DNA of 64,000 nucleotides from NCBI GenBank assembly GCA_002633005.1, contig NMRA01000126.1, forward strand, positions 264,979 to 328,978, given 5' to 3'. Positions 3,413 through 39,285 of the stretch are shown piece by piece. A program made the translations under genes and the position numbers. Source of the stretch: Phoronis australis (taxonomy: Eukaryota; Animalia; Phoronida). The notes under the pieces are model-generated. The model was not told the origin of the DNA and did no database searches. It was given only the letters and a program-made list of their open reading frames with translations. Each line of letters begins with the position of its first letter. The stretch's first letter is position 1.

Positions 3413-3619
3413 AAGTGCAGTTGACTTCGTCCTCCCCTTCATAGCAGTCTTCCTTCTGATCACAGACGGCGCTGCGGTTAATACAGAGATAACGTACCGG
3501 GCACTGATACTCATAGTCTTCGCACTTGGGAGGTGGAGGCGGTCTAACTAATCGTAATATCTGGTTAAGTGGTGGCCTTACACGTCCGACAGGTGTTTTC
3601 GTTGTTGTTGTTATCGGAT
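3413..3619 (-). CDS. LDLa module exon A1 (as A2 but PVRY instead of PVHY)
   Basis: ttgcag|AT ... ACT T|gtaagt; 207 nt, phase 1-1. It ends in a donor, so the gene continues downstream. Confidence 0.9.
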
Positions 3620-6600
3620 CTGCAATATCATGAAAACAAAAAAATCTTCTTGTCTTCAACTGTTGCTTATAATATAGTTTGAATTTTGATGATGCAGGTA
3701 TTACAATACATCACGTAACTGATTCCACGTCCGAGTCAGCACCCAGGTTGGTGACGCTCCGTCAAACTTAATTTCATTCATCCCTAATATGTTAGCCAGT
3801 CTGCCAGACGCACCGTTGTCCCGCTTCAGCTATATAACAGAGTATATGAGCTAAGATTTGAAACACTCCTCTAAACCTTTCCATCGCTCTGACGGTTTTC
3901 TGTAACTTGCCTGAGACATTTGTTCATTACTCATACAGTGTTCTTGCAAGAGTAAGGAATATTCTCCTTTCCACTATGTGCCAAAATCGACAGACAAGTT
4001 TAGAAACTTGTCTGCGGAAGCAGCTCCTAGTTGTGAGGAAATTGGATTGAAGGTTTTCCTCCTAAAAAATCACAAAGCTCCACTTAATGTCATAAGCGAG
4101 CTTTGCAGAAACATGTGCAGTGAACTACAAATTTAGAAGAGATAAAGGATGACGAAACCAAGAACACCAACAAGCACGACCATGACGCCTTCTACACCAT
4201 CGGACAGTAACTGATGGATAGATTACAACTGTATTCAGGAATCAGTCGATAAAACAGGCATCAAATCAGGAAAAAACATTTCGAATAACTCGAGAACCGT
4301 AAGTTGTAGCGAGAAACCAACAATGCTTTGAAGATAGCCCGGGAGGAGATCTACTTATCCCATACGCATTGAATCATTCAGTCGAGTGCAATTTGGCCAT
4401 GTGATATTGTTTTCCGTATTCTCCTCCCACAATACTTCAACAGTGCCCTCTGACATGGAAAGTTGAAAAGGTAGGTCAATGTCGACTCGACGTCGTTAGC
4501 GGAATTGACCAATAAACTTTCCCAAAATAGTTCAAAGTAGTACGATTGCAGCAATATAAATAACACTAAACATGCAATCATGTCCCAAACGTAACATTTG
4601 AAACAAAACTGTTAATTATATGACACTTTTGTCTCAGTTTTTATATGCAAAATATTATATCGTCTGCAACTCAGGCGCCGATTCCTCGGTAACTACAATA
4701 TCAAATATAGTAGTTATTTAACTATTTTCAGGAAATTTTTAAAGTCCAGTGCACCATTACCGTTTTTTTCGTCTTTGTTATCTCTTTTCATGTAATAAAT
4801 CGTTACATCTAAAACTGCTTCTTTTACTAGAGAAAACCTGTAACCTAACGAGCCCACAACCCAACCGTTGAGCTATTGACAAGATAAATATTGTGCATAA
4901 ATCTAATGTCGATCAGACGAATAGTGGGAAAGGTCTTTCGCAATGCTGATAGCGTTTGAAAAGATCTATTCATATACCCGACTTTCAGACACCTCCGTCA
5001 AGGGACGATGGCAGACATTTGTGTCGCTTTCTATATTGTTGTATGGTTATACTGAAAATGGGTGGCTAAAGAAAGATTATGCTGTGCAAGTGGTGTAATG
5101 ATCTAGAAGTAGTTCCAATAAAGTAGTCCTTAACCATGTGCTATCACGTTGGAGCCTTGTTTTAATGACTGTAAGTTTTATTGAAAACACGGCATTTTTG
5201 CTTGCTGGTCACGTCAGAAAATAAGAAGATTTTCAACAAGTGTAATTTGTATCAACGAAAAATCAGTTATTGATGCTTTTTCAGAACACATCCGAAATAT
5301 CCTCTACTAACGCTCTCTCTGCGGGATGGAGGCGAGTTTTCCGAATAATTTGAATGACGAGATTTATATGTTGAAGCATCTACCATAGGCACAAGAAGTT
5401 GGAATTCGTGGGCTGGGCAAGCACAACCCCCATTCGTGATGTTGGGAGGGTGTGCAGTCACAACCACGGATGCTCATGGAGAGCAAAATCTGAAACGTGG
5501 GATTAATGACTACTACGGTTAGTTGCCATATGGCTATGATAAAACACATAACTATGAGAAAATTATCATTTTCGTTTGAAATATGCAGATTGACTCCTTG
5601 CAGTGCAACTGTGGCTGCTTTGGCCATAGAGTCGGACAAAGAGATTTTGTGAAACAATGACATTTTGTATAGCATCGTACAATGACTTACAAGTGCAGTT
5701 GACTTCGTCCTCCCCTTCATAGCAGTCTTCCTTCTGATCACAGACGGCGCTGCGGTTAATACAGAGATAATGTACCGGGCACTGATACTCATAGTCTTCG
5801 CACTTGGGAGGTGGAGGCGGTCTAACTAATCGTAATATCTGGTTAAGTGGTGGCCTTACACGTCCGACAGGTGTTTTCGTTGTTGTTGTTATCGGATCTG
5901 CAAAATCATGAACACAAAAAATCTTCTTGTCTTCAATTGTTGTTTCTAATATAGTTCGAATTTTGATGATGCAGGTATTGAAGCTCAAATTACAAAACAT
6001 CATGTAACTGATTCCACGTCCGAGTCAGTACCCAGGTTGACGCTCCGTCAAACTTAATTTCACCTTAACCATGTGCTTTCACGTTGGAGCCTTGTTTTAA
6101 TGACTGTAAGTTTTACTGCCGGAAAACATAGCATTTTTGTTTGCTGCTCACGTCAGAAAATAAGAAGATTTTCAACAAGCGTAATTTGTATCAACGAAAA
6201 ATCAGTTATTGATGCTTTTTCAGAACACATCCGAAATATCCTCTACTAACGCTCTCTCTGCGGGATGGAGGCGAGTTTTCCGAATAATTTGAATGACGAG
6301 TTTTATATGTTGAAGCATCTACCATAGGCACAAGAAGTTGGAATTCGTGGGCGAGCACAACCCCCATTCGTGATGTTGGGAGGGTGTGCAGTCACAACCA
6401 CGGATGCTCATGGAGACCAAAATCTGAAACGTGGGATTAATGCCTACTAGGGCTAGTTGCCATATTGCTATGAGAAAACACCAAACTATGAGAAATTATT
6501 ATTTTCGTCTAAACTCTGCATATTGACTGTTTGCAGTGCAACTTTGGCTGCGTTGGCCATAGAGTCGGACAAAGAGATTTTGTGAGACAATGTTATTTTG

Positions 6601-9600
6601 TATAGCCTCGTTCAATGACTTACAAGTGCAGTTCACTTCGTCCTCCCCTTCAAAGCAGTCTTCCTTCTGATCACAGACTGCGCTGCGGTTAATACAGAGA
6701 TAACGTTCCGGGCACTCATACTCATAGTCTTCGCACTTGGGAGGTGGCGGCTGTTTAAAAATTCGCGTTAACTGGGAAGGTACTCGTCGTAGACTTGAAA
6801 CAGGTGCTGTCGTTGTTGTTGTTATCGGATCTGCAATATCATGAACATAACAAATCTTCTTGTCCTCAACTGTTGCTTCTAATACAGTTTGAATTTTAAT
6901 CATGCAGGTATTAAAGTTCAAATTGCAATCATCATGTAACTGATTCCACATCTGGGTCTGTACCCATGTTGATGACACTCCCTCAAACATAAATTTCATT
7001 CATGCCACAATATGTTAGCCAATCCGCTTTAACTATATAAGAGGATATATGAGCTAAAATTTAAAACACTGTTCCTAAACCTTTCCTCCGCTCTGAGGGT
7101 TTTCTCAGTGTAGCCTGCGACCAGCTACGACCCCCTTGACCCAGTCTACACAAGCTCGACTCGATCTGAACATAGAACAAGCGCTGACTTGCAGGACCAA
7201 TGAGTCAGGCCGTGAGCTCGGCTGTTTTTTCTTTGCTTTTTTCAATTAAGAGAGTCGATTCGGCTAGTTTAAAAGCTAAACACGAAAAAAACAACTCTTC
7301 CAAATCAAATCAAAGACTAACAACTTTACAAATGTCGTGCCCGGCAGAGTGTTATCGTCTCGTCTGCTCTTCAATGAATGGCAGACTCGAGCTTTTTAGG
7401 AGAGTGCGAGGAACCGACGAATATGTAATTTCATCAGTAAACACAGTTTGAAAAACAAACGCAATCTAGTAAAACCTTTGACCCATACGATGGAACATAC
7501 TAAAAGCATAAGCTGTACTTGATGAAAAGTTGTTTGGGGGCGACCCATTTATTTCTTGAACTGAGTTACTAAACGAGATGATTCAAAGTGCAAACATTTC
7601 ATCGTCAGCCTTCGTAATCAATTTTTGTAACAGATCAGTCTGTCAAAAGTGATGCAACGGCGTCGGACTATGAGTCTGAAGCAAGGTTTCAAATCGTGCG
7701 CCATACCAAAAAGGTGGAAGATATCTATTATGTGTACACGTAACATGGCCTGTAGATTTGCCTAAAAACGCGAATTAATCAAATTCCCACTGAGATGTAT
7801 TTCATGCGTATCACAGGCGTAAGACAAGTTACGTTGCAACACGTAAAGCTCCTTAATGCAAGGTTATCGTAGAAGAGGTGGTTTCGTTTCTTGTTTTGTT
7901 CTTATGCTTCTGGGGGTGGTTTTTTGATTCTATTTATTTTTTGACGCGTTATCATACTTCAATGCACTTCGTAACACCACTAATTTTGAACACCATGGAG
8001 CGAATGGGTTTCATTAATTGCTTCAAAAGGAAGACTGCCCGCCACTAAATAATTTATTAGCGAGATTGATGCTTGATGACTTCGGCTTGACGTAAACAAT
8101 GCTGGGTGTGATTTTTAGGCAGTCGAACTAATACTCACTATTATCCACAAATTTCCCTGCGCAATTCGTAGATACTGTCTGACAACATAATCCTAATAAA
8201 GGCAATTCACCTTCTTCTAAACGGTGGTAGAGCTCACTGCAACACTGGTATACTGGTTGTAAACAAAATACCGATATGCATTTGTGATCAACAATGTCCA
8301 GGGCGATACCTGCGTCACAAGCTAGTTTATGGACAAGACAAGAAGAACGTGGGATGGTGAAATAAAAATAATTTATTACGACAAAATAGTGGTACAAAGT
8401 AGAAGATTATAAAATAATATATACAACAGGCCAAATAATAATAGTCTCTGTAAGGATGACCAATAAAACGCCCAAGGCAGAGAAACTATTATCAGAGTAG
8501 GGAGGTAGGGGTGTACATCATGAACACTGCAGAAAGATTTAATTCAAATATCTGTGCTGCTGACACAAAGGAATGACACAGAAAACATGCAAATATACAA
8601 TTAACAGACATTCTTAATGAAAAATTACAATCATCAGCTTATATGAAGCGTGAGTTGCACCAAACTGGTGGCACATGACAGAAAATACCAATAGGAAGGC
8701 TGGAAATAGGTGTCCTGGGAGGATGCAGGTATATAGACCCACACAAAGAAATTGGTGGACCGGTCTGAAAGGTAGAAAAAAAGTGTCAGACAAGTCTATA
8801 TTTTCACCACATAAATTATAAGGAGTAAAATAAAATTTAAGATCGACATATGTCCTAAAAATAAATAAACGTGCGTCACAAGCTAGTCTTCAGAGGAGAG
8901 GTGGATTGGCAAAATAAGGGTCAATTATTGTGACAAAATAACGGTACTAAGTATAAGGATGAAAAATAATGAATATATAATAACTAAAATGATAATAATT
9001 CGTAGAAAGATAACCAATAAAAAATAATGCAAGAGAAGTTGTAAGATAGGTTGTGCCTATCTACAAAAACGCATGGAAAAGGAAAGGGGGGAAACAGATA
9101 TTTGTGAGGGGCTACTTTCAGTTTGCTGCCAACCAGATATCCAATCGTCACTCCAGCTCCAAAGCCAGCAGTGAGTTACGTTTACGCATCCTAAATGCTA
9201 TGAAACAGAAGTAATTTTATACCTCACATTACGTGCTCTGTAGAACTACAGCGACTTGCGGCAAAACATTACAATACAGCCTTAGCCGGTCTAACATTTT
9301 AACCATAGACCACGCGAGTTTACCAATGCCCTAGCATATAGAGGGATACAAAAACAGGAAAACCTTTCTTATAACAAAATCATAAAAAATGTTCTTTTAG
9401 TGATTGAGCAGTCCCCATGTCGTCACTGCTTAATCAGTGGCCCTTATCTTGAGCGGGACCCCTAAGCTGTTAACCGGCACTGACAATATAAATACATGGA
9501 AATGACACGTAAAAAAAGAAAAATGCTTCTTCCAAACAGCACCCCTTTTGTTTACTTACGGGTGCAGTCCTCTTCGTCATCTCCATTATGGCAATCCCTG

Positions 9601-12600
9601 ACCTGGTCACAGATGGCGTTGCGGTTAATACATAAATAATCGTCCCTGCATGAATACTCATAGTCTTTACAACTGGGAGGTGGTGGTACTACAAATCCAA
9701 ACGGTGGCATCCACTCACTTGGGGCTGAGGTTGTTGTGTGATCTGTAACATTATGACACAATGTATTTCTTGTTCAAAAATGCAACATTTATTAACAAAA
9801 TTTTCAGCCAAAATTTGCTTTGTCTTTGTCTTTCGCTTCTAATTGCCCACATGCGCACTTTGTAAATTTCGGTTCTTAACTACGATTCCTTCCTTGACGA
9901 AGAGACTCAGTCATTTCAAACCATTTTACAGTCACAAGCTGGTTTCAACGGTGCCAAATAAAACTAACACGGTAGTCGTTGTGTCTCCCTCCAGCAGATC
10001 TATGGATGAAAATTTGATACATAATACGATAATAAAAGTTTAAAAAACTTTTATTAGCTCTACTTGCAAGTTCCTCATAAGCCGTATAACCAAATTTGAA
10101 AATATCATATCATACTGACTGGACTTCACTCGTGACTTTCGATGAAGATTTAATGAAAAGAGAGTTTTTTCAAGACCAATCCCGTTGAAACACTATGAGA
10201 ATTTATATTATGAAAGCCTCATGCAAGGCCATCCTTGAACCACTCTTTTTGTTACACATTTTGGTATTTTACTCTAGATTTGATTCCGTGCTTCTGGTCT
10301 TGGTCTTGGCTTTCGTTATTTTGCCTTGATGACGAATGAACGTACATAACTTCACACATAAAAGCAAGCTCTACGTGTTGAATATCATGTACTGAATGGA
10401 CGTCATTGATCACTTGAACGGGGAGATCGTAAGCCCGTAAGTGGAATTATTCACAAGGGTGAAGTTCTGGGACTTCAGGAAAGTCCCACATTTAGGTTTA
10501 TCGGACATCCTAACCTAGTATAAGTATTGAGTCCTCCCCAGTCGTCACAGTTTAACGGCTCCTATCTTGCGCGGCACCCCTAAGTTGTATACCGACACTG
10601 CTAATATAAATACATGGAAATGACACGAAAAAAAGAAAAATGCTTCTTCCAAACAGCACCCCTTTTGTTTACTTACGGGTGCAGTCCTCTTCGTCATCTC
10701 CATTATGGCAATCCCTGACCTGGTCACAGATGGCGTTGCGGTTAATACATAAATAATCGTCCCTGCATGAATACTCATAGTCTTTACAACTGGGAGGTGG
10801 TGGTACTACAAATCCAAACGGTGGCATCCACTTACTTGGGGCTGAGGTTGTTGTGTGATCTGTAACATTATGACACAATGTATTTCTTGTTCAAAAATGC
10901 AACATTTATTAACAAAATTTTCAGCCAAAATTTGCTTTGTCTTTGTCTTTCGCTTCTAATTGCCCACATGCGCACTTTGTAAATTTCGGTTCTTAACTAC
11001 GATTCCTTCCTTGACGAAGAGACTCAGTCATTTCAAACCATTTTACAGTCACAAGCTGGTTTCAACGGTGCCAAATAAAACTAACACGGTAGTCGTTGTG
11101 TCTCCCTCCAGCAGATCTATGGATGAAAATTTGATACATAATACGATAATAAAAGTTTAAAAAACTTTTATTAGCTCTACTTGCAAGTTCCTCATAAGCC
11201 GTATAACCAAATTTGAAAATATCATATCATACTGACTGGACTTCACTCGTGACTTTCGATGAAGATTTAATGAAAAGAGAGTTTTTTCAAGACCAATCCC
11301 GTTGAAACACTATGAGAATTTATATTATGAAAGCCTCATGCAAGGCCATCGTTGAACCACTCTTTTTGTTTCACATTTTGGTATTTTACTCTAGATTTGA
11401 TTCCGTGCTTCTGGTCTTGGTCTTGGCTTTCGTTATTTTGCCTTGATGACGAGTGAAGGTACATAACTTCACACATAAAAGCAAGCTCAAAGTGTTGAGC
11501 ATCATGTACTGAATGGACGTCATTGATTACTTGAACGGGAAGATTGTAAGCCCGTAAGAGGAATTATTCACAAGGGTGAAGTTCGGGGACTTCAGGAAAG
11601 TCCCACATTTAGGTTTATCGGACATCCTAACCTAGTATAAGTATTGAGTGCTCCCCAGTCGTCACAGTTTAACGGCTCCTATCTTGCGCGGCACCCCCAA
11701 GTTGTATACCGGCACTGATAATATAAATACATGGAAATGACACGTAAACAAGAAAAATGCTTCTTCCAAACAGCACCCCTTTTGTTTACTTACGGGTGCA
11801 GTCCTCTTCGTCATCTCCATTATGGCAATCCCTGACCTGGTCACAGATGGCGTTGCGGTTAATACATAAATAATCGTCCCTGCATGAATACTCATAGTCT
11901 TTACAACTGGGAGGTGGTGGTACTACAAATCCAAACGGTGGCATCCACTCACTTGGGGCTGAGGTTGTTGTGTGATCTATAACGTTATGACAGAATGAAT
12001 TTCTTGTTCAAAAATGCAACATTTACTGTATGCAGTAAAACTAACAAATTTTCTGCCAACGTTTTCATCTAATTGTCTTTGTCTTTCGCTACTAACTGCC
12101 CACGTTATGAAAGAACGAACTTCTTGTCCAAAATTGCAAGTACTGTACAGCAGTAAAATAGCACAATTTTCAGTAAAAGTTCTCTGGCTGCTGACTGCCC
12201 TCATGAGTATAGTTTTGTTAGTTTCGGTTGTTGAAGTTACTTCTTAAGCTTTGACTTCCCGGATCAAAACACTCGTCAAATAGTTAGCTGAAATCATTAA
12301 CCAGCCAAAAAGTTAACCAGTCAAATAGAGTGTCAAATAAAATTGTCAGATGTTGTGTCTTTATCCACCGGATCTGGATTATAATTTTAGATACAACAGT
12401 ACTAGTTTAATATTAATCATTCGAAGGAAACGCAAGGTATCTTAAGCCTTTATAACCAATTATCGTATCATGTTGACCGAACTTACCTCAAGCATTTCCA
12501 TGTGAAGATTTAACAACAAGCTAATATACATTTTCAAAATCTCAAGCGGGACTATCTTTCGCATAATTGCAGTGTCTTACCCTCGTTTTGTGTGGATGCT

Positions 12601-21600: not shown

Positions 21601-24600
21601 TCCTTGAACACTTATTTTTTCATCGTCGCCTTTGCAAACTCTCACATCGTAAGCATAGGATTCTTTGCTGAAAAGCATCGCCTGTTGTCTTTGTCGAAGC
21701 GCTTTCGGATAGTGCCAAAAACATTCATCGATTCCACCAGGAACGTCGTTTAGCGACAGTGTATTTGCCTCTGACATCTTGTTTGTTTGTCGAGTGTCAC
21801 GTGACTTTTCGCAAGGAGGCGGAGCTTGCGATAGGTCTAATTGGGATAATACTCGCTAGTGATGGCTTACGAAATGAATGTGTAGGCCTCTAGCTCCGTA
21901 AGGTGTTTGAAAGCAACCAGGGGGGCAAAACTTCCACGTCTACACATAGACTGTTGCAACAACCAACGTAACGATATTAGCGCGTCATGTTAGAGAGGTA
22001 ATTATTTTTTGGTACAAAATCCGCTGAAGTGCATGTAGCTCCCGGCTTTACGTTATTTTTCAAGAGCTTGAAAACATGTGATGGCAAACGATTAGATTGT
22101 GAGTTTACGTGGTTCTGCAATTCCTTTTGGATGACAAGGTAAGTACGTTTTCCTATTTTTCTAAACCGACTTCTGAATACCTTGAACTGGTTTGGTTGCT
22201 CAGAATGTATTTTACACCACGCGGATCTTTATTTTTGACAAAACTTTTTCGTTTTATATAAAGTAAGGTTGGTACATTACCCGCAACAAAAAAATGGTGT
22301 GGCTGAATTCCCGAAAACCTGAAACATTCCTTGCACAAACCATCCCACGGCATTCACGCCGTGCTGGCGTTACATTATTCAATGATCAAGCGATGCTTTC
22401 GCCTTTCACTCCAAACTACTGCAACCCAGAAATACACATTTCAGATCGGATTCCCTAATTTAAAACGCGGAATAAAATCCGGTATACGCCTACTCATGAC
22501 GTCTCCAAACTGAAGAGGGTGTATAAATTATGGTACAACGACTCACATGGGCAAATGTTCGGGCTTTCGTCTTCTCCTCCGGGGCAGTCGTTTTTTCGAT
22601 CACATACAGTGGTTTGGTTGATGCAGGTGCCGTCGTTTGGGCATTCAACTTGGTAATCAGCGCACTTGGAAGGTGGCGATAAAAACAGCGCAACGTCTGC
22701 TGCAGTTGTCGTTTCAGCCATTTTCCATGGTTTGGTTGTTTCTGCCAGAGCTGTAACATCACAGCATGAACTTTACTTTTCTCGTTAAAGCATAGTATTC
22801 ACACAGTCCTGGGTTCATAATAAAGTATTAAGTTACCGTCGTTAGCAAGGGCCGGGTTTCTTAAATAATTTTTAAGTGTTGGTAGACCCAATTTTTTTTA
22901 ATATTTTTGAAATCTTTTATGATCGCAGAATTTTTTGTGTACGACATTAATGTCCACATGTTTGTAATAATGTAATCATATGATTTACTGTTTTCTAAAA
23001 ACATTTATAAATCGTTGCAATATGCACAGTTGTAAGCATGGAGTTTTTCGAATGAATCTCACAAATTCTACTTTTTATTCTACAAGCAGCTACAAATCGT
23101 GATTTGCAGTTTTCTTTTAAGGCATTTTAGCCTGAGAACTCTGCTCTAAAAATTAAGACGTCAAAAACACTCGAAAACGGAATTCTTATTTTTTGACAGC
23201 CGTGCTCTTGGACTAAAAGACACAAGAAAATCACAGACGCGCTTCCGTAAGTAATGGAATAACGAAATAGAATTTGCAAGTTTCTTGCGGAATTTGCGGA
23301 AGCCTATAGGTGTCACAACACTCCCACAAACTCCCCACAGCACCCTCAAAATTCACAACCCCCCAGAAGCCACAACAACTCCAACAGTCACAACACCCCA
23401 GAAGTCAAAAATCAAGTCTAACTTCATTGTTTCATTTTCATTTTGTCACTTCTGTGTGTGCGTGCGTGCGGGCGTGCGTGCGTGCGTGCGTGCGTGTGTG
23501 TGTTATTGCTGTTTTCAGTTGTTTCTGTAATAATTAAATGATGCAATTTCCCATTCCTCTAACTAAAACAAAAAACGCCGTAGGACACTTTTGGGTGTTA
23601 CGTCTCCCGTTCGACAAAAACCGATTTTGTGTTTTGCGGCAAACATTTCACCCTTGCGTTTTGGCTTAGACCCACATGCACCGCTTTTTATCCGGAAATC
23701 CCGCTTTTCAATCCACGAGTTATCACTTTTTTCATTTACGAATGCTGACCGTGACAGTTATGCAACAGTTCAAAATAACATGGTCTCCTCATACACTGTT
23801 GACATGTATCAGGATCACTAATTTTCGATTTCTGAAGAAATGAGTTCATCTATAAGCTTCCGTGGAAAGTCTTACACCCCAACCAATGAAATGAGCTATT
23901 CACATTTCAAAGCTACACAACAGAAAAAAGCTTTATCAGCAAATTTCGAATAGTTAGAGTAATCAGTATATCACACTTTTGTAATAGTAAATGACACTGC
24001 ATCTTCATTTTTACTGAAGAATCTAATTGTATCAAACGGTAACAAAAGTCCAATTAATTTTTAAAGATTATAATTTTGGATGAATGCCTGACAAAATTCT
24101 TCCAAGCAACTGTGAGGGATTCATATTCTAAAATCTTTGTCTTTATAGGATAGAAATCTTTTCAATCATTGAAATTAGCTCCCTGCTGTTTTAACTATCA
24201 TTTATGTACCCTATCTGGTTCATTCACCCTGTTATTTTTCGCATCTTGTTAACACTTGTTGTTTTTACAAATAAAAAAATATTTTATAAACCTGTATGGA
24301 ATATGAAATGATAATCACTCATGAATTCAATTCTCTATCTTTTGCTTTTAGTACAATCAAAAATTGATAAAGGTCTTGACTGGGCAGATAAGTGCAAATT
24401 TGCACCAGAATCGTGCAAATGATGATACAAGCACCAAATTTTCCATGATGACTCATAATAGCATATTCAAGGGAACTCTCCGACTAGCCACCTAAAAATC
24501 CAAGATGACGGCCATTTTTCAAGATGGCCGCCATCCAGTGTTCGCGATAATGATTTTCCGGTAAATCGGTATCTACCCAACCGAATTTAGCGATCTTGGT

Positions 24601-27600: not shown

Positions 27601-30600
27601 GGTTGGATTCAGTGTGAAGAGTCATGGAAAATACACTGGATAACCCTTCCACCAATAGCTGCATGCTGCCAGGAATTGACTAAATACTGCAGTAAGAAAG
27701 GCTGTATCCAGAGGTGCAAATGTTTCCGAACAGGACTTTCTTGTACCGCTCTGTGTAGCTGTGCATGTGACCAGTAACGTCGTTGTAAACGAATTCAGTA
27801 AAGGAATGAATAATAGACAATAGATTCCGAACAATATATTATTGTGTGTTATTATTTTAGCATTAACGTGAAGTTCATGTTCGACTAAGTTTGTGATTTA
27901 TGATTCCCTCCATTTATTTTGTATTTGATGTGCGAGAGCATAGTTTTGTTTCTCGTTAATAAAATGAAATTTGATGTTGTAATTTTTTTGTTTATTTTAT
28001 TAGTAGTTGCCCACATGGTGTTAAAATGCTTCTGAAAATATCAAAAATGAATTCAGCATATCCAAAAACATACAATTTGACAACGTATTTACGAAAATCG
28101 GTTGGGCAGAGACACCAAAGGTGGCCTTTTTGAAAAATGGCCGCCATTTTGGATTTTTAAATGGCTAGTCGGGCAGATCTGTTGAGTATACCTTAGGATG
28201 TCACTATGCCAATTTTGGTGCTTGTATCATCAAATGCATGATTTTTCTACTATATGCCCAGCTATATGCAGTTCGCTTGAAAAACGACGGGGTTTAATTG
28301 CGAAAAGTTTTAGTGACAGTAAATTCCTCAGTAGCGCGAGATCGAGGTTGGCATTCCCGAGGTGCGTTTCATGAAAATGACGTAGTGTAAGACTTAAGAC
28401 AGAAATTTGGTCTTACCCTAGCACTTCACAATTGGTGAATAAAGGTTTAGCAAAGTAATAAAAGCGCATCACGGTCTAGAAATAATTCGTACAGATTATC
28501 TCAGTACCTCGCTTTTATGTGTATTCTCAAAGACTTAAAACGTTTGATCAAATGAGATTGAATCATTTTTCAGAAATTGTTGAGTGGAGCGTGAGACCAA
28601 ATTTCTGGCTTAAGTCGAAAGTCTCTTCATGAAACAGTCCCAGGGCTAGAGTTGTATGACTATCTAGTTCTCCATCACGCGAGTGCTCACACGATGGTCA
28701 TGCTCAACTCGCAACCGTTGGCTCGTGCATTAGTAGTCTCGTGTCATGACTCACGTGCGCAGTGCATTGGGTCTTCGTCTTCCCCTCCGGGGCAGTCGTT
28801 TTTCTGATCACAGATGGCAGTGTGGTTGATACAGGTGGTGTCGTTTGGGCATTCAACTTGGTAATATTCGCACCTGGAAGGTGGCAACAACAATAGCGCA
28901 ACATCGGGTGCATCATTTACAGGTGTTGTTGTTTCATCTGTTGCCGGTGTTCTGGTTGTTTTTGACTGAGCTGTAACATCACAAAGAAGTGCCTTAAATT
29001 TCTCGTTAAGGCATAGTACTCGTTCTGTCTTGGATATTTAAGGTCACTGGATACCATCGTTACCAAGGACCACATTTGTAAGTCTGGGTTCATTAACATA
29101 AATAGTCAATTAGCTTTGATTAGAAATTTACTTATATTCCACTTTTGTTAGCTTTAACGCGTACCATTGTCAGAGGTAGTCTGTCCCTTTTCTGATTTCA
29201 ACCCATCGCTTGACCCGATATTCGTTGTATTTGGGCCTATGGTAACCTTTATTTGCGATGCGGAAGGCACTGAAAAAAATCGTGGATGCTGTTACCGAGT
29301 TGGTTGCAAATATTCAAGTACATACAGATTATTATGTGGCGAAGTCGTTATCCCCCGTAATCTAGAGCCCGAGTGAATTTTGGAGAATTATCGCCCGGGG
29401 ATGTTAATTCTACAAAATTCACGAGAGCTCTAGATAAGGGGGATAACGACTGAGAACATGTAATAATTTATTTATACCACATACTGAACAAGAAACATTG
29501 CAAAGAATCGATCAACCTTTCTCAACTCCCCTCGGCTTTGTAACTACTTTCTATGTCAGAGGTCTGGGGTCAGAGGTCGTGACTTTTTAAGAAAAGCAAA
29601 ATAATATTTTTACTCAAAACCAATTGGACATTTAAACAAAATATAAATAAAGTGAATCTATAAATTAAGTTTTAGCAACTAGTGTAGCTTACTACATGTT
29701 TTATCACGCTAAGCTTCGACCGTGAAAATATCGTCTGCTAAAGTAAGTTACCATTGCTTACTGAGTATAATGCCCAAGTTAAAGAATACCGCCGACACGA
29801 TACCCGCATTCAAGTTGGAGATCGATGCTTTACAAGTGAGAGAAAACGAGATATAAATTTAACTGAATTAAAATATGGTTTTCATGGAAATTATGCGTCT
29901 AACTTTTCATAGCCTATAAATGTCGGTACAATGCCCTTTGTTGAACATGCAATTATTGCGCGTGCTCACTTCTAAGTATTCTATTTTCACGTTCGAAGGC
30001 GTCAGCTACTGAGTGGTGCAGTGTTAAAGTCGACGACTCGAAACTCTTGCGGAGCAGGTTCGAAATCTACATATCAAATGGGCCACATTGACATGAAAAA
30101 TTCATTTCGTGTGCAACATGAAGACACACATGCGCGGGCGTGGGCGTGCGCGGACGCGCACACACGCACAAAGATATTTCGAGAAATACTCTGAAACACG
30201 AGTGCCATAAATGCATTTTATTGGGAACTTATAGCATTTTGTGATGTCCAAGAATACTTTTGCAAGGCACAAAATTTAGGAAATGTGCCACTGTTGACTT
30301 TAATTGCAGAGAAACGGACAATAGATTTACTCAGACTGGCTCAGTCGTATCTCATGCACCACACAACGAACATTTTCATTAAACTGTAGTTGCATCCTAC
30401 GTTCAAATCAAACACTATTTCACATTATTTCCAACGCAGCAGTACAAACAGCTTTTGTAGTTGTTCTACCTTGGCGCATGAAATGTCCTCTCGACATTTG
30501 CCCTTTAGCTGTGTTCCGTAACTCAACTAAAAATTATTGTTCTCTGTAATGAGAGTTAACTTCAACACCTTTCTAATATTTACGCCCTGAAAAGCAATTA

Positions 30601-33600
30601 CAAAACTTTGAATTCCTGAAAATGAAAAACACTCTTAGTTCCAGTAAAACCAAATCTTGGTACTATTACATAGGCGGATTTAGGGGGAGGGCCAGGGAGC
30701 CCGCTCCCCCCCCCCGCTCCCCCTCCCTTGGCTGCCGCAAAAAAGTAAAACAGCAAGAGCGTAGGGAAATGTTGAGTTTATTAATTAACCCCGGTAATTA
30801 AAATTATACGGATGAAACAAGATTTAAATGTGTGCAGTTTTAGTGTTGGGGGGATGGCTCAGATCCAATTTCAAGTGTCAAATTCGGAACACGGCGCAAT
30901 CGTAACGGAACTATGGCTAAGGATTGGCTCTCTGCTCTCTCGCGATATCCCAGGCGACCGGCAGTGGCGCTGCGCATTACGACTCCGTTTCGGTCCTCTG
31001 CTCCACAGGCGTCCTCAGCTTCTGATCGTCCCCAATACACTACATATAATACTACAAGGTATGACACTCCCGACTAGAAATTCCACGGGTGCTTCACTTC
31101 AGCCGTCCATAGCAAACATAATACTCAATAAATTTACACAAAACAGGGGTTCAACAAACCATGAAGAATTGTTCTTTCTCCCAATACCATTCACGGTGTC
31201 CTGTTACGGCGACTTCGTAAGAAATTCGCAGTCAAAGAACAAAAATGTTCACAAAAACCCCCCACACACGTNGAGTTTTATGTTTGCTAGGGACGGCTGA
31301 AGTGAAGCACCCATGGAATTTCTAGTCGGGAGTGTCATACCTTGTAGTATTATATGTAGTGTATTGGGGACGATCAGAAGCTGAGGACGCCTGTGGTCTG
31401 CTCCACTGTGCAATGAAGAAAATTACTTCATTTTTTAAAGAAAATGGAACCTGAGTGACGATGAAAAAACAGAAGCTGCTGGTAAGATGTGGATTTTAAT
31501 CGAAGCCTGAGTGCATCACTCAAAAACTCATAATTCTCTCTTTGTCAAACCTTAACTTAATACGATTTCCAAAGCAATCCCGGGCGTCGTTATTGCCAAC
31601 ACGAAAAACGGATTTGGTCTTTTGGGCAATTGAAGACTATTTTAAATACAACAAATTCGTTATGAACCGATTGCACAAAATACAAAACGTGTAATAAGCA
31701 TTACAAAAAAGTAGGTTTCGCGCGTAAACGCTGTGGACCATAAACAAGAAGGTCTCTTAGTCACAAATGAGGAGCGAAATCCTGGTGGTGTAGTGGCAAA
31801 GCGCGCGAGCTATACCCACTAGGTCGTGAGTTCGAGTCTGTGGAATTTGCAAGTTTCTTGTTTTTTCCTTTTTTCTTGGATAATACTTCAGGAATCAAGG
31901 AAAATGCTTGATTTTTAGAGGAAACAACAGAAAATTTTCCGACCTCCCCCCCATTCGGTGGTGTGCTTACGGACAAAATGTTGCTCCCCCCTTGTGATAT
32001 CCTAGACCCGCCACTGCTATTAGACTATTTTATTATCTTGTTGGGACAGACCATAAACAACTGTGAATTCCGAACATCAACGTCTGTACCTAGACTATTT
32101 CAAGGTTTCTCAGAACCTCGGCTCGCGCAAAATCAATAAAAGTGTAAGTGGCAATGTGTTGGTCTTTAAAGATATTGGGCCAGGCTTAGCATTCCAGAAG
32201 TGAACAACAAAAGAGTGGATAAACTGACATTTCATTACCTTGTAGGCTTACTTACTTGAAAAGTACACACCAAGCCCTACAGTTACGGCGATTGCGGATG
32301 CGCAGACGATAAATAAAATGATTGCCAGCTTCTTAGGGTTACGGCCGTCATCGATGGCACGAATGCTATCTTTTTCGTCCACATGTTTTTCATCGTCTTC
32401 TCCAATGGTCACCTGTGGCCGGAAAAAGAAAGAAATGGCTATTTGTCTTGTTATTACATCTACATGTAATTGTACTTGTGACAGTGCTTATCATAACGGT
32501 GACTGCCACCATCACTTATTATCGTCATAATGGTTGTCGTCGTTCCCGTCGTTAGACAAGTCAGTGCTTTTCTGGCAATATTCTAACAGATGGCGTATAC
32601 GCGTATTTTTAAATGACCATGTACCTACATCCGAAATAATGCGTTTTGTTTTTTTTTTACGTTACTAACAAGAATACAATAGTTCATTCGAAATGATTGA
32701 CCATAAACTGCATTGTTCCACGGTGTATCTGTCGAAATGCATTCATCTGATGGGTGTCGATGACGTCTTAGTCTTCTATTTTCATCTCGTTGTCACAATC
32801 TTCCAGTCACGGAGTTGTTTATTGACGTGCACACAGACCACATGTACTCATCCGAAAGATTTCAACTCAGGCTCTCTGATTATTGTTATTTGCCTGTAGT
32901 TGGCGCACAATTCAGCCGTGTTTTCTTTTTAGCGAGTCGACGTCGCAACAACAACACGTATCGTTAGTTTCACTCGTTAGCATTTTTATAGTCCTAATAG
33001 ACTACATTCTCTGGCCACGCAGACAATTGATAACTTGCAAGTGCCACCTTAATTATGTTTTTATGGGGCTCTTTGGCTCGTTCTTTGTATTTTTTCTTGT
33101 AATAAGTTAATAGTGGCTTCAGTACAGGTCAACATTGAAAGTTTTTTTTTAAAGATTAGGTCACGATTCATTCGCATGTTATGGTCAATTTGCGCAACGC
33201 AGAGCGTCGATATTCATTCGCCCATCGTGTGCATCGCACATACCGCTAGATATTAGGGATGGTAATTATTGAAACATCCTTCTAAAGTGAGCAATGTCAG
33301 TAAACTTAAAATCGATCGCCTATAGGGGATGCAAACCAAGTCATGAGTGCTCTTCTAAGCAGGCACTTACCACCTTTTTATTGATGATTCTTTAGGACGT
33401 TTGTAGGATAGGGAGGTGGGCGAAAAAGAAAAGGCGCAAAAAATGAAGTGCCACTAAGGGCCGCAACATAGGACTAATCTAAAAGTGCAGTACTCTCGGT
33501 AAAAGATTGTTTTATTTGACACTGAACTTTCATGAACAACCATAAAGAAACTTCGTAGATATTAAAGCAAACGCTAACAAAATTGCCATTAAGCGATTCC

Positions 33601-36600: not shown

Positions 36601-39285
36601 TGTGAGCTCCATACTTAGTTCACAGCCTACCAACGGGTATCTAGAGAACAGCAGCTTGTGGTTGTGGTGTTTTGAAAGAACTAAAGGCAGAGGCGTGGCT
36701 TTCTGGATATACATTACGAATTAAACTTAAACGACGTTCTTGTTCATGTTTTATATTTCACAACAATTCAAAGCGCTAAAATAATTCGTTCCATTTATTA
36801 ACTCTTTATCTTAATGCAGTCTTCGAACATGATATTCGCTGTTCTGGATCTATTAGACTATACAGGTAGTCCTAACGATGCTTTACTTACGCAAGAAAAC
36901 GTGATTTTTTTAAATCCATGAGTGTTTAATTAAAACATTGAAACGCAGGCACGTCAAATTTTTGTGCCACTTAGCATCAACACAATACAACAGCAAACAA
37001 AAACCGGAAGGTAGCAGTATTTTTGAACATTCGCCTGTACAAGGAAGACAAGCTTATTCGCCATAATATTCGTTATTGTTTGCATTACATAAAAGCAAGC
37101 TTGTGTACCGAAACCTGGAACTTCGAACTTCGAACATGGTTCCAGGTTACTCCCATCGGAGTGGCGTTTAACTCCACTTAAAACCTTTCCCAATGCAGGT
37201 GAGTTGCGCAACTCCGCAGTTTACATCACGAGTTTTGGGGGGACTGCCATGGCTGTTAAGTTCGGAAGTAACCCTTTTCCATGTACCGAAACTCCGCAAA
37301 ACTGGGAGTTGCGACATGAATTGGAAAGCAACAAGAATCCTCAGAGAACTCACGTCATTTGGTTATTTTGGAATGAATGTTGTCGGAATCAACAATTGTA
37401 AGAGAGAACCACTAACGAACACAACGACATGATGATGATAGGCAAATATCGCAGGAGTAGATAGCATACCCACTGCCAACTACACTGTACTAGGCTAGCG
37501 TCGTTGTACAATGAAGGTTCAACCAGTCCTTCGTAAATTAACTATACTCTGCATAAACAGCGAAGTGCCAATCGGAGCGTTTCGAAAATAAAAGGATGTG
37601 CTGAACGAGACGACTTATGGGAGGCGCATTATTAAGTGAGAGCAAATCTGAACCTGATTTTGGCATAATTGTGTGTCGAAGGTTAATGAACAAAACTAAT
37701 TTGTTTGCATGACATCTTTAGCACGGCTGATAGAAACATTGACAGAAAGGTCCCCTTTTACTTGAAAATGTTACTTTGATCGCAAAAAATGTGGGACTCA
37801 CACGCCGATTTTTGAGTTCAAATTTTGAGTAACTACCCTTCAGAATGTAAAAGAAGTTCGAATCCTGCCTAACTGTAAACGTCTGGGACACAACGCATTT
37901 AAGGTGCTCCGAAGTTGGGCTAGGCAGTTGCACCGTCTGAGCTAAGCCATCCAAGCTAAGTAAAGTCGGGGAGGATCAACTTATATATAGATGTGACATT
38001 TGATTCAAATATGGGGATCCCGCGCCCAAAATTCTTCTCTCGCGTACGTTACTTCCCTCTCGCGGCTGTATCTTCTCCACTTTTCGCATTTCTCAGGCGA
38101 TATTTATTTGTTCGCAAATGGACCAACCCTGCTCCTGCGCATTTATCTCTGTCCGCGAAGGCTATTCTGTAATGCGACGAATGGCGTCGATGTGGTATTT
38201 TGTTGGACATTGTCCGGTTGCATGAACCCGTCGCAACATCTTCATTGTGAGCTAATCGTTTGCTCGAAAGATCCCCCAATTTGGCGAATTGGGCAAAAAG
38301 GTCCGCCTCAGTGAAACAAAAAGTCCGAGTAAACGAGACAAAAGTCCACAAAAATCACGGGAAGTAGGCGCGGATGCACGGTGCGTGGGCCTGAACCTAG
38401 TGGCCCCGTTTTTTAGTCCTCGTGGATTTCTGTAACTAAAGGGTCTGCATACCGAAAAGTTCGAGCCCCCTATAACTTTAGGCTGGGTGCGCGCATGCAT
38501 AGTCGACTCCTTCTTGGGACTGTTGCAACAGGACACAGTCGGTAACCAGACCTTGGAATGTTTTTTAATGAACTTGGGTTGTTATTTTTGCAATCATTGA
38601 ATTTACTTATTTCTGCACCGGTCTCTCCTTTCAGTAAAAATATCTACAAGAAACAAACGCGCTTTTTTAAGTTTCTTTTGAGACGATGCCCCGACTTCCC
38701 AGCAACGCGACTCACAAGATGTTAACATTTATTAAGATTCAAACTTTCTTTGCTCTCACAATGCTAGTTTCACAAAATTTAAGTAAAAAAACCTCCATAT
38801 GTGTTACAAGTATCCTCTGCTTCGTTGCTACCAAATAATTGTTAATATCTCTTGGCAAGCAAAACGGACATTTTGCATTCGGCTCAAAAGCCTAAAAACT
38901 TAAAACACAAATCATTCTAAAAACCAAATGGATTGAACCACATGCAGGTTATCCGCATCTAAGAAGGTTTCTGGTAAAAACTTTAACTTGGCCATAATTA
39001 GTTACTTGTATCTTACCAATGTATCACCCAGGATGATATAAAGAAGCTTTAATATTATACCTTCAACTTTTCCATGTCTACACCAGAGCTGCCGTCACCA
39101 CCACATTTCTCATCGTACCCAGTGGTGTTTTCAACTGAAATTGCTACGTCATCAAGTGTTTTTTCGTCATTTCCAACATCTGGATTCAAATGGTTGTCAG
39201 CTTCCCCTGTTTGAAGACTTTCGGCATCTCCATTACGAACATCGACGCTGGTACTGTCGACTGCGTCTTCGCCTGAGATTGTCAT
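3413..39285 (-). CDS. Multi-exon gene (3'-incomplete in window): type II single-pass membrane protein with tandem [Thr-rich linker + poly-Pro + LDLa] modules; LDLRAD1-like or corin/TMPRSS-stem-like architecture
   Basis: Ten GT-AG bounded exons join in one frame with no stops: 225+157+216+204+3x183+3x207 = 1972 nt. Splice phase is 0 between exons 1 and 2 and 1 at every later junction. Domain order is acidic N-terminus, hydrophobic anchor, then 8 LDLa modules. No stop-containing terminal exon was recognised. Confidence 0.85.
5691..5897 (-). CDS. LDLa module exon A2 (PITTTTKTPVGRVRPPLNQILRLVRPPPPPKCEDYEYQCPVHYLCINRSAVCDQKEDCYEGEDEVNCT)
   Basis: ttgcag|AT ... ACT T|gtaagt; 207 nt, phase 1-1. Confidence 0.9.
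6624..6830 (-). CDS. LDLa module exon A3 (PITTTTTAPVSSLRRVPSQLTRIFKQPPPPKCEDYEYECPERYLCINRSAVCDQKEDCFEGEDEVNCT)
   Basis: ttgcag|AT ... ACT T|gtaagt; 207 nt, phase 1-1. Confidence 0.9.
9560..9742 (-). CDS. LDLa module exon B1
   Basis: ttacag|AT ... ACC C|gtaagt; 183 nt, phase 1-1. Confidence 0.88.
10677..10859 (-). CDS. LDLa module exon B2 (E-to-K variant of B1/B3)
   Basis: ttacag|AT ... ACC C|gtaagt; 183 nt, phase 1-1; 1117 bp from both neighbours. Confidence 0.88.
11794..11976 (-). CDS. LDLa module exon B3 (HTTTSAPSEWMPPFGFVVPPPPSCKDYEYSCRDDYLCINRNAICDQVRDCHNGDDEEDCT)
   Basis: ttatag|AT ... ACC C|gtaagt; 183 nt, phase 1-1. Confidence 0.88.
13972..14123. mobile_element. Small MITE with terminal inverted repeats
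   Basis: cgttcagtaacgctaggacct ... aggtcctagcgtctactgaacg; the internal aaaacgcaagacttcgcgagat motif recurs near 45795. Confidence 0.55.
19325..20160 (+). mobile_element. Interspersed non-autonomous repeat ending in a short palindrome (Helitron/Helentron-like, tentative)
   Basis: Begins caagagcgctc and ends cttggcgaaatttatttcgccaa (hairpin). The end motifs recur, truncated, at ~18948-18983 and ~19151-19170. Confidence 0.4.
21505..21777 (-). pseudogene. Orphan first exon of a SWIM zinc-finger gene of the type carried by Kolobok-group transposons
   Basis: MSEANTLSLNDVP...VQGKVFRSQRKPDEPP, then a frameshift, LNVTNDKATEAICSCKAG|gtatgt. The 'V..KV.RSQRK...P' and 'A.CSC.AG' SWIM signature is interrupted by a donor; no next exon was recognised. 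Confidence 0.55.
22547..22750 (-). CDS. LDLa module exon C (LAETTKPWKMAETTTAADVALFLSPPSKCADYQVECPNDGTCINQTTVCDRKNDCPGGEDESPNICP)
   Basis: gatgttacag|CT ... CCA T|gtgagt; 204 nt, phase 1-1; paralogous to exon D including the upstream intron flank. Confidence 0.9.
23452..23502. repeat. (GT)/(GCGT)n microsatellite
   Basis: tgtgtgtgcgtgcgtgcgggcgtgcgtgcgtgcgtgcgtgcgtgtgtgtgt. Confidence 0.9.
24377..28264 (+). mobile_element. Academ-type (AcademX-like) DNA transposon, decayed and internally deleted, in the C-D intron
   Basis: Imperfect ~250-bp TIRs (ctgggca..gatgatacaagcaccaaa..ccgactagcca..aaaaatccaa.atg.cggccatttttcaa at both ends); right end ...gcccagCTA fits the Academ TAG...CTA termini. It contains a broken ORF with TNWDKCCLCQ, DAIAQEVKYHPAC, FTTSAVDNIDHNPTATTA..FHG and a terminal Cys-rich CXC finger. 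The superfamily is assigned from motif recall. Confidence 0.75.
25458..27777 (+). pseudogene. Frameshifted Academ-type transposase
   Basis: Consecutive ORF pieces 25570-26103, 26007-26354, 26461-26700, 26764-27147, 27120-27596 and 27430-27777 form one colinear protein from ATG 25458 (MASSKTFWRTNWDKCCLCQ) to CSKKGCIQRCKCFRTGLSCTALCSCACDQ*. Confidence 0.8.
28360..28641. mobile_element. MITE with terminal inverted repeats
   Basis: gtttcatgaa...gacttaagacagaaatttggtctta versus tgagaccaaatttctggcttaagtc...ttcatgaaac. Confidence 0.55.
28755..28970 (-). CDS. LDLa module exon D (QSKTTRTPATDETTTP...PPSRCEYYQVECPNDTTCINHTAICDQKNDCPGGEDEDPMHCA)
   Basis: gatgttacag|CT ... GCA C|gtgagt; 216 nt, phase 1-1; six-Cys LDLa spacing with DC..GEDE. 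Confidence 0.9.
29343..29451. repeat. ~109-bp imperfect palindrome
   Basis: agtcgttatcccccgtaatctagagcccgagtgaattttggagaatta / taattctacaaaattcacgagagctctagataagggggataacgact. Confidence 0.85.
30669..32016. mobile_element. Non-autonomous DNA transposon (cataggcggat...ccgccactg termini), host of a nested MITE
   Basis: Short G-rich TIRs; ctatta is duplicated on both flanks. An inverted partial second copy lies at 52253-53002. It contains a tRNA-like A/B-box segment at ~31782-31840. Confidence 0.7.
31003..31396. mobile_element. Young MITE with ~125-bp near-perfect TIRs and 6-bp TSD (TCTGCT)
   Basis: ccacaggcgtcctcagc... / ...gctgaggacgcctgtgg; tctgct at 30997-31002 and 31397-31402; the empty site is visible in the paralogous copy near 52870. 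Confidence 0.9.
32256..32412 (-). CDS. Coding exon 2: signal-anchor transmembrane exon (VTIGEDDEKHVDEKDSIRAIDDGRNPKK-LAIILFIVCASAIAVTVGLGVYF-S)
   Basis: Strong acceptor tttctttctttttccggccacag|GTG and donor TCA A|gtaagt; 157 nt, phase 0 to 1. A 23-residue hydrophobic stretch is preceded by RNPKK, so the positive-inside rule puts the N-terminus in the cytoplasm. Absent from the ORF track. Confidence 0.88.
39061..39285 (-). CDS. Coding exon 1: acidic cytoplasmic N-terminus (MTISGEDAVD...GVDMEKLK)
   Basis: ATG at 39285 has an in-frame TGA 12 codons upstream. The exon ends AAG|gtataa (phase 0), matching the phase-0 acceptor of the TM exon (...EKLK|VTIGEDD...). D/E-rich composition continues across the junction. 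Confidence 0.72.

What the first reader, a model, noticed from the sequence alone, without database searches (positions are those of the whole stretch)
3413..39285. Type II membrane protein built from a modular array of one-exon mucin-linker + LDLa cassettes
Seen: acidic tail, signal anchor and at least 8 exons, each holding exactly one Thr-rich spacer, a Pro run and an LDLa domain. All are phase 1-1, and every possible skip junction (A/C/T + AT or CT) gives a sense codon. Known: LDLR-family clusters usually pack LDLa repeats with short linkers, and type II LDLa proteins are LDLRAD1 or the stems of corin/TMPRSS/enteropeptidase-type proteases. Inference: this is a lineage-specific, expandable beads-on-a-string surface receptor whose length and specificity can change by exon copy number and by cassette or mutually exclusive splicing. 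It is a candidate recognition molecule (gamete, immune or symbiont).
Basis: partly seen in the sequence, partly recalled or inferred. Interest (0 to 1): 0.8.

Follow-up and report, generated by a model that had tools for sequence, protein, structure and literature searches.

The report
Eight-bead LDLa surface protein, no protease
A transcribed invertebrate gene built by copying one exon into eight LDL-receptor-type modules ends without any enzyme domain and is predicted to be a membrane-anchored, multivalent tether for an extracellular partner; the same layout already occurs in nematode and frog proteins, and exon shuffling by splicing was not shown.

Summary
Eight minus-strand, phase 1-1 exons each encode a Thr/Pro spacer plus one LDLa domain, and joined to two 5' exons they give an open 657-aa frame. 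RNA reads mark module exon 8 exactly and show module-to-module splicing. No close relative was found among 1.84 billion representatives. The layout is not new: type II anchor plus LDLa only occurs in a nematode protein resembling EGG-1/2 and in a Xenopus TMPRSS2-like derivative. Phase 1-1 symmetry is the norm for extracellular modules. Strictly mutually exclusive splicing is contradicted, and skipping was not shown. All 8 modules keep the Ca2+ ligands but lack the Trp and DxDxD of LDLR-type lysine pockets. Hints of fast evolution: the M7 and M8 exons are homogenised, the M6 spacer is strongly diverged, and two RNA samples differ in module types. The anchor-to-module junctions were not tested by RNA. 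The scan noted phase-1 LDLa exon arrays before in other genomes (perlecans), not this gene.

The parts
39061..39285 (-). E1: predicted first coding exon, 75 codons, acidic cytoplasmic tail, phase 0 donor (two other in-frame GT donors at 39148 and 39082 are possible)
   Evidence: not tested by RNA
32256..32412 (-). E2: rest of the tail and predicted type II signal anchor (from residue 104); phase 0 acceptor, phase 1 donor
   Evidence: not tested by RNA
28755..28970 (-). M1: spacer + LDLa (class A), 216 nt, phase 1-1
   Evidence: not tested by RNA
22547..22750 (-). M2: spacer + LDLa (class A), 204 nt, phase 1-1
   Evidence: its bin had depth 0.37 in X2 and 0 in the other three runs
11794..11976 (-). 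M3: spacer + LDLa (class B), 183 nt; first of three 1117-bp tandem units
   Evidence: X4 contig with joint 11976 to 11794
10677..10859 (-). M4: class B, 182 of 183 nt identical to M3
9560..9742 (-). M5: class B, identical to M3
6624..6830 (-). M6: spacer + LDLa (class C), 207 nt; spacer strongly diverged from M7/M8
   Evidence: M6-type letters in X1 and X3 reads
5691..5897 (-). M7: class C, 206 of 207 nt identical to M8
   Evidence: M7-type letter in X1 and X2 reads
3413..3619 (-). M8: class C, last module
   Evidence: RNA coverage matches the exon ends; joint 3619 to 3413 in 10 (X1) and 3 (X2) reads
2756..2793 (-).
   Evidence: loose read ends in X2 match it best, 23 of 30 letters and the distal 14 of 14; one run only
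2621..2626 (-). AATAAA, candidate polyadenylation signal about 130 nt after the stop
   Evidence: cleavage site not shown

Best explanation
This is a transcribed 11-exon gene predicted to encode a 669-residue type II membrane glycoprotein whose eight LDLa modules likely act together as a non-enzymatic, multivalent tether for an extracellular coat or matrix partner. Shown by calls: eight intact module exons, splicing of class B to class B and class C to class C modules, a short terminal exon in one run, purifying selection on the LDLa domains, and no protease. Inferred: the acidic 103-residue tail is cytoplasmic and joined to the modules; each LDLa folds around Ca2+; the Thr/Pro spacers and N-glycan sequons hold the beads apart as an extended stalk. 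Binding likely does not use the LDL-receptor lysine pocket, and the class-specific hydrophobic or basic spacer segments may share in partner contact. The array likely grew from one ancestral exon by unequal crossing-over, with recent duplication and homogenisation, so module number would change mainly in the genome while splicing is mostly consecutive. It would work like C. elegans EGG-1/2 (a membrane anchor for a coat scaffold) without being shown to be its orthologue.
For: Gene model and Pfam. RNA: 22, 20 and 2 reads in X1-X3 on the M8 stretch. All but 2 lie within the exon, with first mates on +, which fits a minus-strand RNA in most stranded libraries. Terminal exon. LDLa dN is below dS between and within classes, e.g. 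M3/M6 0.29 vs 0.94 and M1/M2 0.18 vs 0.54. 8 of 8 modules keep the first and last Asp of the C4-C5 pentapeptide and the Asp-Glu pair; 0 of 8 have an aromatic residue at C4-2 or a central acid. PMC3304490 section 8 ties Ca2+ binding to the former and ligand binding to three or more acids there. The tail has no NPxY, YxxPhi or acidic dileucine motif. Common origin: signature CINxx[AT][IV]CD in 0 of 1966 foreign domains; for 5 of 6 distinct modules tested the best other-class module outscores every foreign domain. Duplicated units include intron flanks. Precedent: EGG-1/2 are single-pass LDL-repeat proteins anchored to the vitelline scaffold CBD-1.
Against: No partner, tissue or localisation is known. 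E1-E2-M1-M2-M3 and M5-M6 junctions were not seen in RNA: E1, E2 and M1 were never laid, and M2 had almost no coverage. The terminal exon rests on 8 loose ends in one run with agreement 0.72, and X1 did not show it. M6-8 have a third acid in the pentapeptide (position 4), so some basic-ligand binding remains possible. Lack of Trp and central acid is common among my hits (1034 of 1952 domains), so it says little about function. The tree neither shows nor rejects one clade for the modules (p-AU 0.17, 36 columns). Sample X2 lacked M6-type letters, which skipping could explain.
Confidence: 0.5

Rival explanations
1. The gene is the protease-less remnant of a type II transmembrane serine protease: the anchor and an LDLa stem exon were kept and amplified, the protease was lost, and the product would act as a decoy or scaffold for protease partners. 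This origin is compatible with the tether function.
For: Xenopus XP_031752392.1 (type II, 7 LDLa, Thr-rich spacers, LDLa-only in Pfam) is 35-47% identical to TMPRSS2-like XP_031752396.1, which has LDLa repeats, SRCR and trypsin. So this route to the same layout exists. The terminal exon shares 12 nt with the class C module start, as if the gene were cut short (weak: 6-12 of 300 shuffles score as high).
Against: No SEA, CUB, SRCR or trypsin-like exon was found in the window: 156 proteins, including such domains, gave 4 weak HSPs outside the modules. The N-terminal 135 residues match none of them (best E 0.83). The modules do not group with the Xenopus domains in a poorly resolved tree.
Confidence: 0.18
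2. One reading: a recognition receptor diversified by regulated cassette or mutually exclusive splicing of the modules, for gamete, immune or symbiont recognition.
For: Any skip keeps the frame. At site 3496, M6-type letters were in 6 of 12 X1 reads and 0 of 16 X2 reads (Fisher p 0.0025; 0.055 if halved for overlapping mates). X2 also had no depth over M3-5, while X4 showed class B only. The M6 spacer differs from M7 at 25 of 95 sites against 48 of 631 in flanking introns (nominal p 6e-7). Skipping of LDLa exons tunes ligand binding in ApoER2 (PMC7410921).
Against: Modules of one class are spliced to each other, so they are not mutually exclusive within a class. No skip junction was identified. 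M3-5 have identical LDLa domains and M7/M8 differ by one residue, so there are about 4-5 distinct modules. LDLa domains are under purifying selection, and spacer dN over dS is not significant (p 0.18). The sample differences can come from 3' bias, alleles or contig filtering.
Confidence: 0.15
3. The 5' model is wrong: the modules belong to a secreted matrix or coat protein (like sea-urchin SFE9 or proteoliaisin), or to separate transcripts, and E1/E2 belong elsewhere.
For: No RNA junction for E1, E2, M1 or M2 was obtained. The introns M1-M2 and M2-M3 are 6.0 and 10.6 kb and hold transposon-like sequence. Secreted LDLa-array coat proteins exist (10.1101/369504).
Against: Phases match at every junction and the frame is open. 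No other strong in-frame internal exon was found in 9 of 10 introns. No other signal-peptide exon was noticed, though none was searched for systematically. M1-2 share the signature of M3-8.
Confidence: 0.1
4. An LDLR-like endocytic receptor that captures basic protein ligands such as vitellogenin or lipoproteins.
For: Eight acidic LDLa repeats (net charge -6 to -9 each); the best solved relatives are LRP2, VLDLR and LDLR.
Against: Predicted type II topology; no EGF or beta-propeller exon; no canonical internalisation motif; 0 of 8 modules have the Trp or the DxDxD motif.
Confidence: 0.07

Closest known systems
C. elegans EGG-1/EGG-2 and a nematode look-alike (Nippostrongylus WKY14680.1, P0080)
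   Same: Single-pass protein with LDL-receptor repeats (PMC9936096, PMC8315475 passages). P0080 has an N-terminal anchor near residue 81, 8 LDLa motifs and no other Pfam domain; none of its 6 six-Cys domains has the aromatic residue or central acid. Type II topology and eight repeats for EGG-1/2 are recalled, not read; that P0080 is EGG-1/2-like is my inference.
   Different: Repeats are closely packed (median spacing 40 aa against 61-69 here), there is no sequence sign of orthology, and oocyte expression is untested here.
Xenopus tropicalis XP_031752392.1 (annotated 'very low-density lipoprotein receptor isoform X2'; P0053)
   Same: Anchor at residue 106, 7 LDLa repeats at median spacing 62 aa with Thr-rich spacers, LDLa-only, ends just after the last repeat. 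The nearest architectural match found.
   Different: Clearly related to a TMPRSS2-like protein; its domains lack this gene's signature, so the likeness is likely convergent. It is a predicted gene model of unknown function.
Type II transmembrane serine proteases (TMPRSS2, matriptase, corin, enteropeptidase, Nudel)
   Same: Type II anchor followed by LDLa modules.
   Different: No protease, SEA, CUB or SRCR domain found.
LDLR family (LDLR, VLDLR, ApoER2/LRP8, LRP1/2)
   Same: LDLa domain with its Ca2+ ligands; ApoER2 shows that LDLa exons can be skipped (PMC7410921).
   Different: Opposite predicted topology, no EGF/YWTD unit, no NPxY, no Trp/DxDxD pocket, long spacers.
Sea-urchin fertilisation-envelope LDLrA proteins (proteoliaisin, SFE1, SFE9)
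   Same: Tandem LDLa arrays used as structural coat proteins (10.1101/369504 passage).
   Different: Delivered from cortical granules rather than membrane-anchored; no relationship was tested.

Membership tests
LDLa domain (PF00057) | Score above Pfam cut-off, six cysteines | tested here: met
   8 of 8, 25.5-37.6 bits against 24.1; 6 Cys each
LDLa domain (PF00057) | Ca2+ ligands: first and last Asp of the C4-C5 pentapeptide, Asp-Glu between C5 and C6 | tested here: met
   8 of 8 (definition from PMC3304490 section 8)
LDLR family receptors | Type I topology, EGF-precursor/YWTD region, NPxY tail | tested here: not met
   One anchor at residue 104, none later, no NPxY; no EGF or propeller exon; stop 12 codons after M8
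LDLR family receptors | Lysine-binding pocket: Trp at C4-2 and DxDxD | tested here: not met
   Ala in 7 and Thr in 1; central residue Lys or Val in 8 of 8
Type II transmembrane serine proteases | N-terminal signal anchor | tested here: met
   Hydropathy and charge only; the junction to the modules is not shown by RNA
Type II transmembrane serine proteases | C-terminal trypsin-like domain | tested here: not met
   Terminal exon after M8 in run X2; no protease-like hit in the window. A minor longer isoform beyond the window is not excluded
EGG-1/EGG-2 | Single-pass protein whose ectodomain is LDLa repeats only | tested here: met
EGG-1/EGG-2 | Orthology by sequence | tested here: inconclusive
   Only the look-alike P0080 was compared: no N-terminal match, no signature, unresolved tree. 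C. elegans EGG-1/2 themselves were not in hand
EGG-1/EGG-2 | Oocyte-surface location and need in fertilisation | not testable with these tools
   Tissues of runs X1-X4 are not given
Mutually exclusive exon arrays (Dscam-like) | One exon of the array per transcript | tested here: not met
   Module-to-module joints: class C in 13 reads of two runs, class B in an X4 contig. Back-splicing could mimic such joints
LDLRAD1 | Orthology and repeat number | not tested
   Architecture recalled only; search listing gave nothing on it

The most novel reading that the evidence does not exclude
A fast-evolving, copy-number-polymorphic recognition protein of an invertebrate (likely a mollusc) surface, possibly the egg. 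Its LDLa beads are a conserved Ca2+ scaffold, specificity lies in class-specific spacer peptides that selection keeps distinct, gene conversion homogenises sister exons, and individuals or tissues display different module sets. It would be an independently evolved EGG-1/2 analogue showing the concerted repeat evolution recalled for gamete-recognition proteins such as abalone VERL.
Probability: 0.15. Interest if true: 0.7.

Novelty: new variant of a known kind. Interest (0 to 1): 0.35.

Why it matters
Only five egg-surface fertilisation molecules were listed in a 2023 review (PMC9936096), two of them LDLa-repeat proteins. An independently evolved type II LDLa array with signs of concerted evolution would be a testable candidate if it proves oocyte-specific. 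It would also show repeated convergence on this layout in nematodes, a frog and this animal. Without tissue data it is a lineage-specific modular surface protein of a common building style.

Tried and rejected
No whole genome is held, so paralogues and sequence left of the window could not be searched. The run search listed no RNA holder by index; the four runs came by species label. The 20-kb lay was dominated by repeat-derived reads, and 50 of 65 joints were not shown. Word-based protein searches found no close relative: M6 alone gave 38 candidates and 0 hits; the module alignment gave 64 hits, all but two annotated with LDLa and none close. The ESM Atlas gave only generic LDLa clusters, 0.87-0.91. 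The AlphaFold model of M6 was unusable (pLDDT 46.6), so no fold search was run. A search with the upstream RNase H frame to place the taxon gave at best 53% identity and no useful names. A tree of 56 domains was unresolved. Rejected: sense-codon junctions as evidence of selected skipping (they follow from the shared AT/CT start); degenerate extra modules in the window (none); a protease exon in the window; the P0068 hit at 31285-31467 (contains stops). An assembly artefact for M3-5 is unlikely: the two introns differ at 19 of 934 sites and a class B to class B joint is in X4; the exact copy number is unverified. No complex prediction was run, since no partner is proposed. Literature searches for a described mollusc or echinoderm protein of this layout listed none by title or abstract start; the library lacks most subscription papers. 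One search found no paper stating EGG-1 topology.
Full report
What is in the sequence. The window is animal genomic DNA of about 40% GC with assembly gaps. No genome is held for it. Earlier, unchecked notes on the same genome call it likely a mollusc; I could not test that. A tblastn with one module found 8 strong minus-strand hits. A DNA profile and a protein profile confirmed 8 and no degenerate ninth. The exons are M1 28970-28755, M2 22750-22547, M3 11976-11794, M4 10859-10677, M5 9742-9560, M6 6830-6624, M7 5897-5691 and M8 3619-3413. All have AG and GT(A/G)AGT ends in phase 1 and lengths divisible by three, and all pass the Pfam LDLa cut-off. With E1 (39285-39061) and E2 (32412-32256) they give 657 codons without a stop. 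E1 is the most acidic of 134 long frames in the window. E2 holds the only hydrophobic stretch, from residue 104, preceded by basic residues. This fits a type II anchor; it is a prediction from hydropathy.

RNA. Four runs were offered by species label, tissues unknown; about 18-19% of each raw-read run was read. On 2900-22899, most reads were repeat-derived. One 213-nt contig of X4 (RNA status a guess) covers M3 and loops from its end to its start exactly at 11794 and 11976. I read this as class B exons spliced to each other. On 3250-3800 at 80% likeness, 22, 20, 2 and 0 records were laid from X1-X4. Depth is confined to the M8 exon except for 2 opposite-strand X1 reads. The joint 3619 to 3413 appears in 10 X1 and 3 X2 reads. 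It cannot tell M6-M7 from M7-M8, M6-M8 or back-splicing. In X2, 8 reads run on past the M8 donor. Their 30-letter consensus (agreement 0.72) matches 2764-2793 best (23 of 30, the distal 14 exactly; next best 19 of 30, the M7 and M8 starts). Every letter is explained by that exon or by a module start. That exon has an AG acceptor, adds 12 codons and a stop, and is followed by AATAAA. The product is 669 aa, about 75 kDa, pI 4.4, with 9 extracellular N-glycan sequons. X1 did not show this junction. E1, E2 and M1 were never laid, and M2 had almost no coverage, so the link from anchor to modules is inferred from phase and order only.

How the array evolved. The modules form three classes: A (M1-2), B (M3-5) and C (M6-8). 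Duplications include intron flanks: 1117-bp units for class B and about 930-bp units for class C. The two class B introns differ at 19 of 934 sites, all in their first half. All 8 modules carry CINxx[AT][IV]CD, found in 0 of 1966 six-cysteine domains from 213 foreign proteins. For 5 of 6 distinct modules the best other-class module beats every foreign domain; M2 is matched or beaten by 3. A tree could neither show nor reject one clade (p-AU 0.17). LDLa dN is about a third of dS. M7 and M8 exons differ at 1 of 207 sites but their flanks at 47 of 614 (nominal p 2e-5), which suggests gene conversion. The M6 spacer differs from M7 at 25 of 95 sites against 48 of 631 in flanks (nominal p 6e-7), with dN 0.38 and dS 0.23 against M8, not significantly different (p 0.18). 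I chose these regions after seeing them and the tests treat sites as independent. All five M6-diagnostic letters were in 5-6 of 11-14 X1 reads and 0 of 12-16 X2 reads; p is 0.0025 on reads and 0.055 if halved for overlapping mates. In X1 nearly all boundary reads went module to module (10 joints; 1 of 22 reads only partly laid). More copies, alleles, skipping, circles or 3' bias could each explain these hints.

Likely mechanism. Every module keeps the Ca2+ ligands but none has the Trp or central Asp that PMC3304490 (passages and section 8) and PMC7609443 (passages) link to lysine-based ligand binding by LRP1. Class C has an extra acid at position 4. This loss is common in my hit set (1034 of 1952 domains, a set biased by my profile). 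The tail has no canonical endocytic motif. Spacers are 23-32 residues: a short Thr run, a class-specific hydrophobic (A, B) or basic (C) segment, and a Pro run. I infer an extended, glycosylated, multivalent stalk that tethers an extracellular partner, neither cutting it nor taking it up (confidence 0.5). The partner and tissue are unknown.

Relatives. A profile search of 1.84 billion representatives gave 4007 hits at E 0.001 or better. In the best 150, no single domain exceeded 39.6 bits, against 87-113 for this gene's own modules, which built the profile. So no close relative is among them. Word-based searches and the Atlas agreed. The layout recurs, though. Of 13 hits scanned with Pfam, 6 with an N-terminal hydrophobic stretch had LDLa only (P0037, P0047, P0053, P0063, P0080, P0099). 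P0053 is Xenopus XP_031752392.1, with Thr-rich spacers at 62-residue spacing and clear kinship to a TMPRSS2-like protein. P0080 is a nematode protein resembling EGG-1/2. Passages of PMC9936096, PMC8315475 and bioRxiv 10.1101/369504 describe EGG-1/2 as single-pass LDL-repeat oocyte proteins anchored by the vitelline scaffold CBD-1. Kadandale 2005 was seen only as a reference, and the type II, eight-repeat detail is recalled. PMC8001218 (passages) states that shuffled extracellular modules are class 1-1; it does not name LDLa, whose class 1-1 status is recalled. PMC7410921 (passages) shows LDLa exon skipping in ApoER2. No supplements were consulted.

Verdict. It is not a member of the LDLR family or of the type II serine proteases. 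It works most plausibly like EGG-1/2, without shown orthology. The splicing-diversification idea is unproven and its mutually exclusive form is contradicted within classes. It is a new variant of a known kind, interest 0.35. It would be worth more if copy-number polymorphism and oocyte expression are shown.

Noticed in passing
window 3537-3598 versus 6748-6809: Divergence island: all 25 spacer differences between M6 and M8 fall in 62 nt without indels, while the LDLa part differs at 5 of 112 sites.
   Followed up: partly
window 2778-2789: The terminal exon shares 12 nt with the start of class C modules and may be a decayed ninth module; weak (6-12 of 300 shuffles as high).
   Followed up: partly
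window 24409-28243: Likely decayed DNA transposon in the M1-M2 intron: inverted arms 24409-24532 and 28120-28243 (77%) around broken + strand frames at 25561-27774, the last Cys-rich; three frames had no Pfam hit. The transposon label is my inference.
   Followed up: partly
window 39906-40643: RNase H frame of a non-LTR retrotransposon fragment about 620 nt upstream of the E1 start codon (Pfam E 6e-17).
   Followed up: yes
window 31003-31396 and 31393-32024 versus 52245-52883: A 124-nt, 98% inverted repeat around a single N, next to a repeat element with a second, inverted copy 21 kb away.
   Followed up: no
window 47574-49534: Element with about 270-nt inverted ends and internal tandem units of about 270-290 nt.
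   Followed up: no
window 13970-14124, 18947-19574, 20222-21837: Intronic repeats with very high RNA depth, mostly on both strands, and many loose ends, i.e. repeat families transcribed elsewhere in the genome.
   Followed up: no
window 57621-59161: Degenerate tandem repeat with units of about 410-450 nt.
   Followed up: no
window 3558: A non-synonymous read variant (3 of 10 X2 reads) in the class C spacer that matches none of M6-8, likely an allele.
   Followed up: no
P0053 (XP_031752392.1): A Xenopus tropicalis model named 'VLDL receptor' looks like a protease-less TMPRSS2-like derivative with Thr-spaced LDLa repeats.
   Followed up: partly
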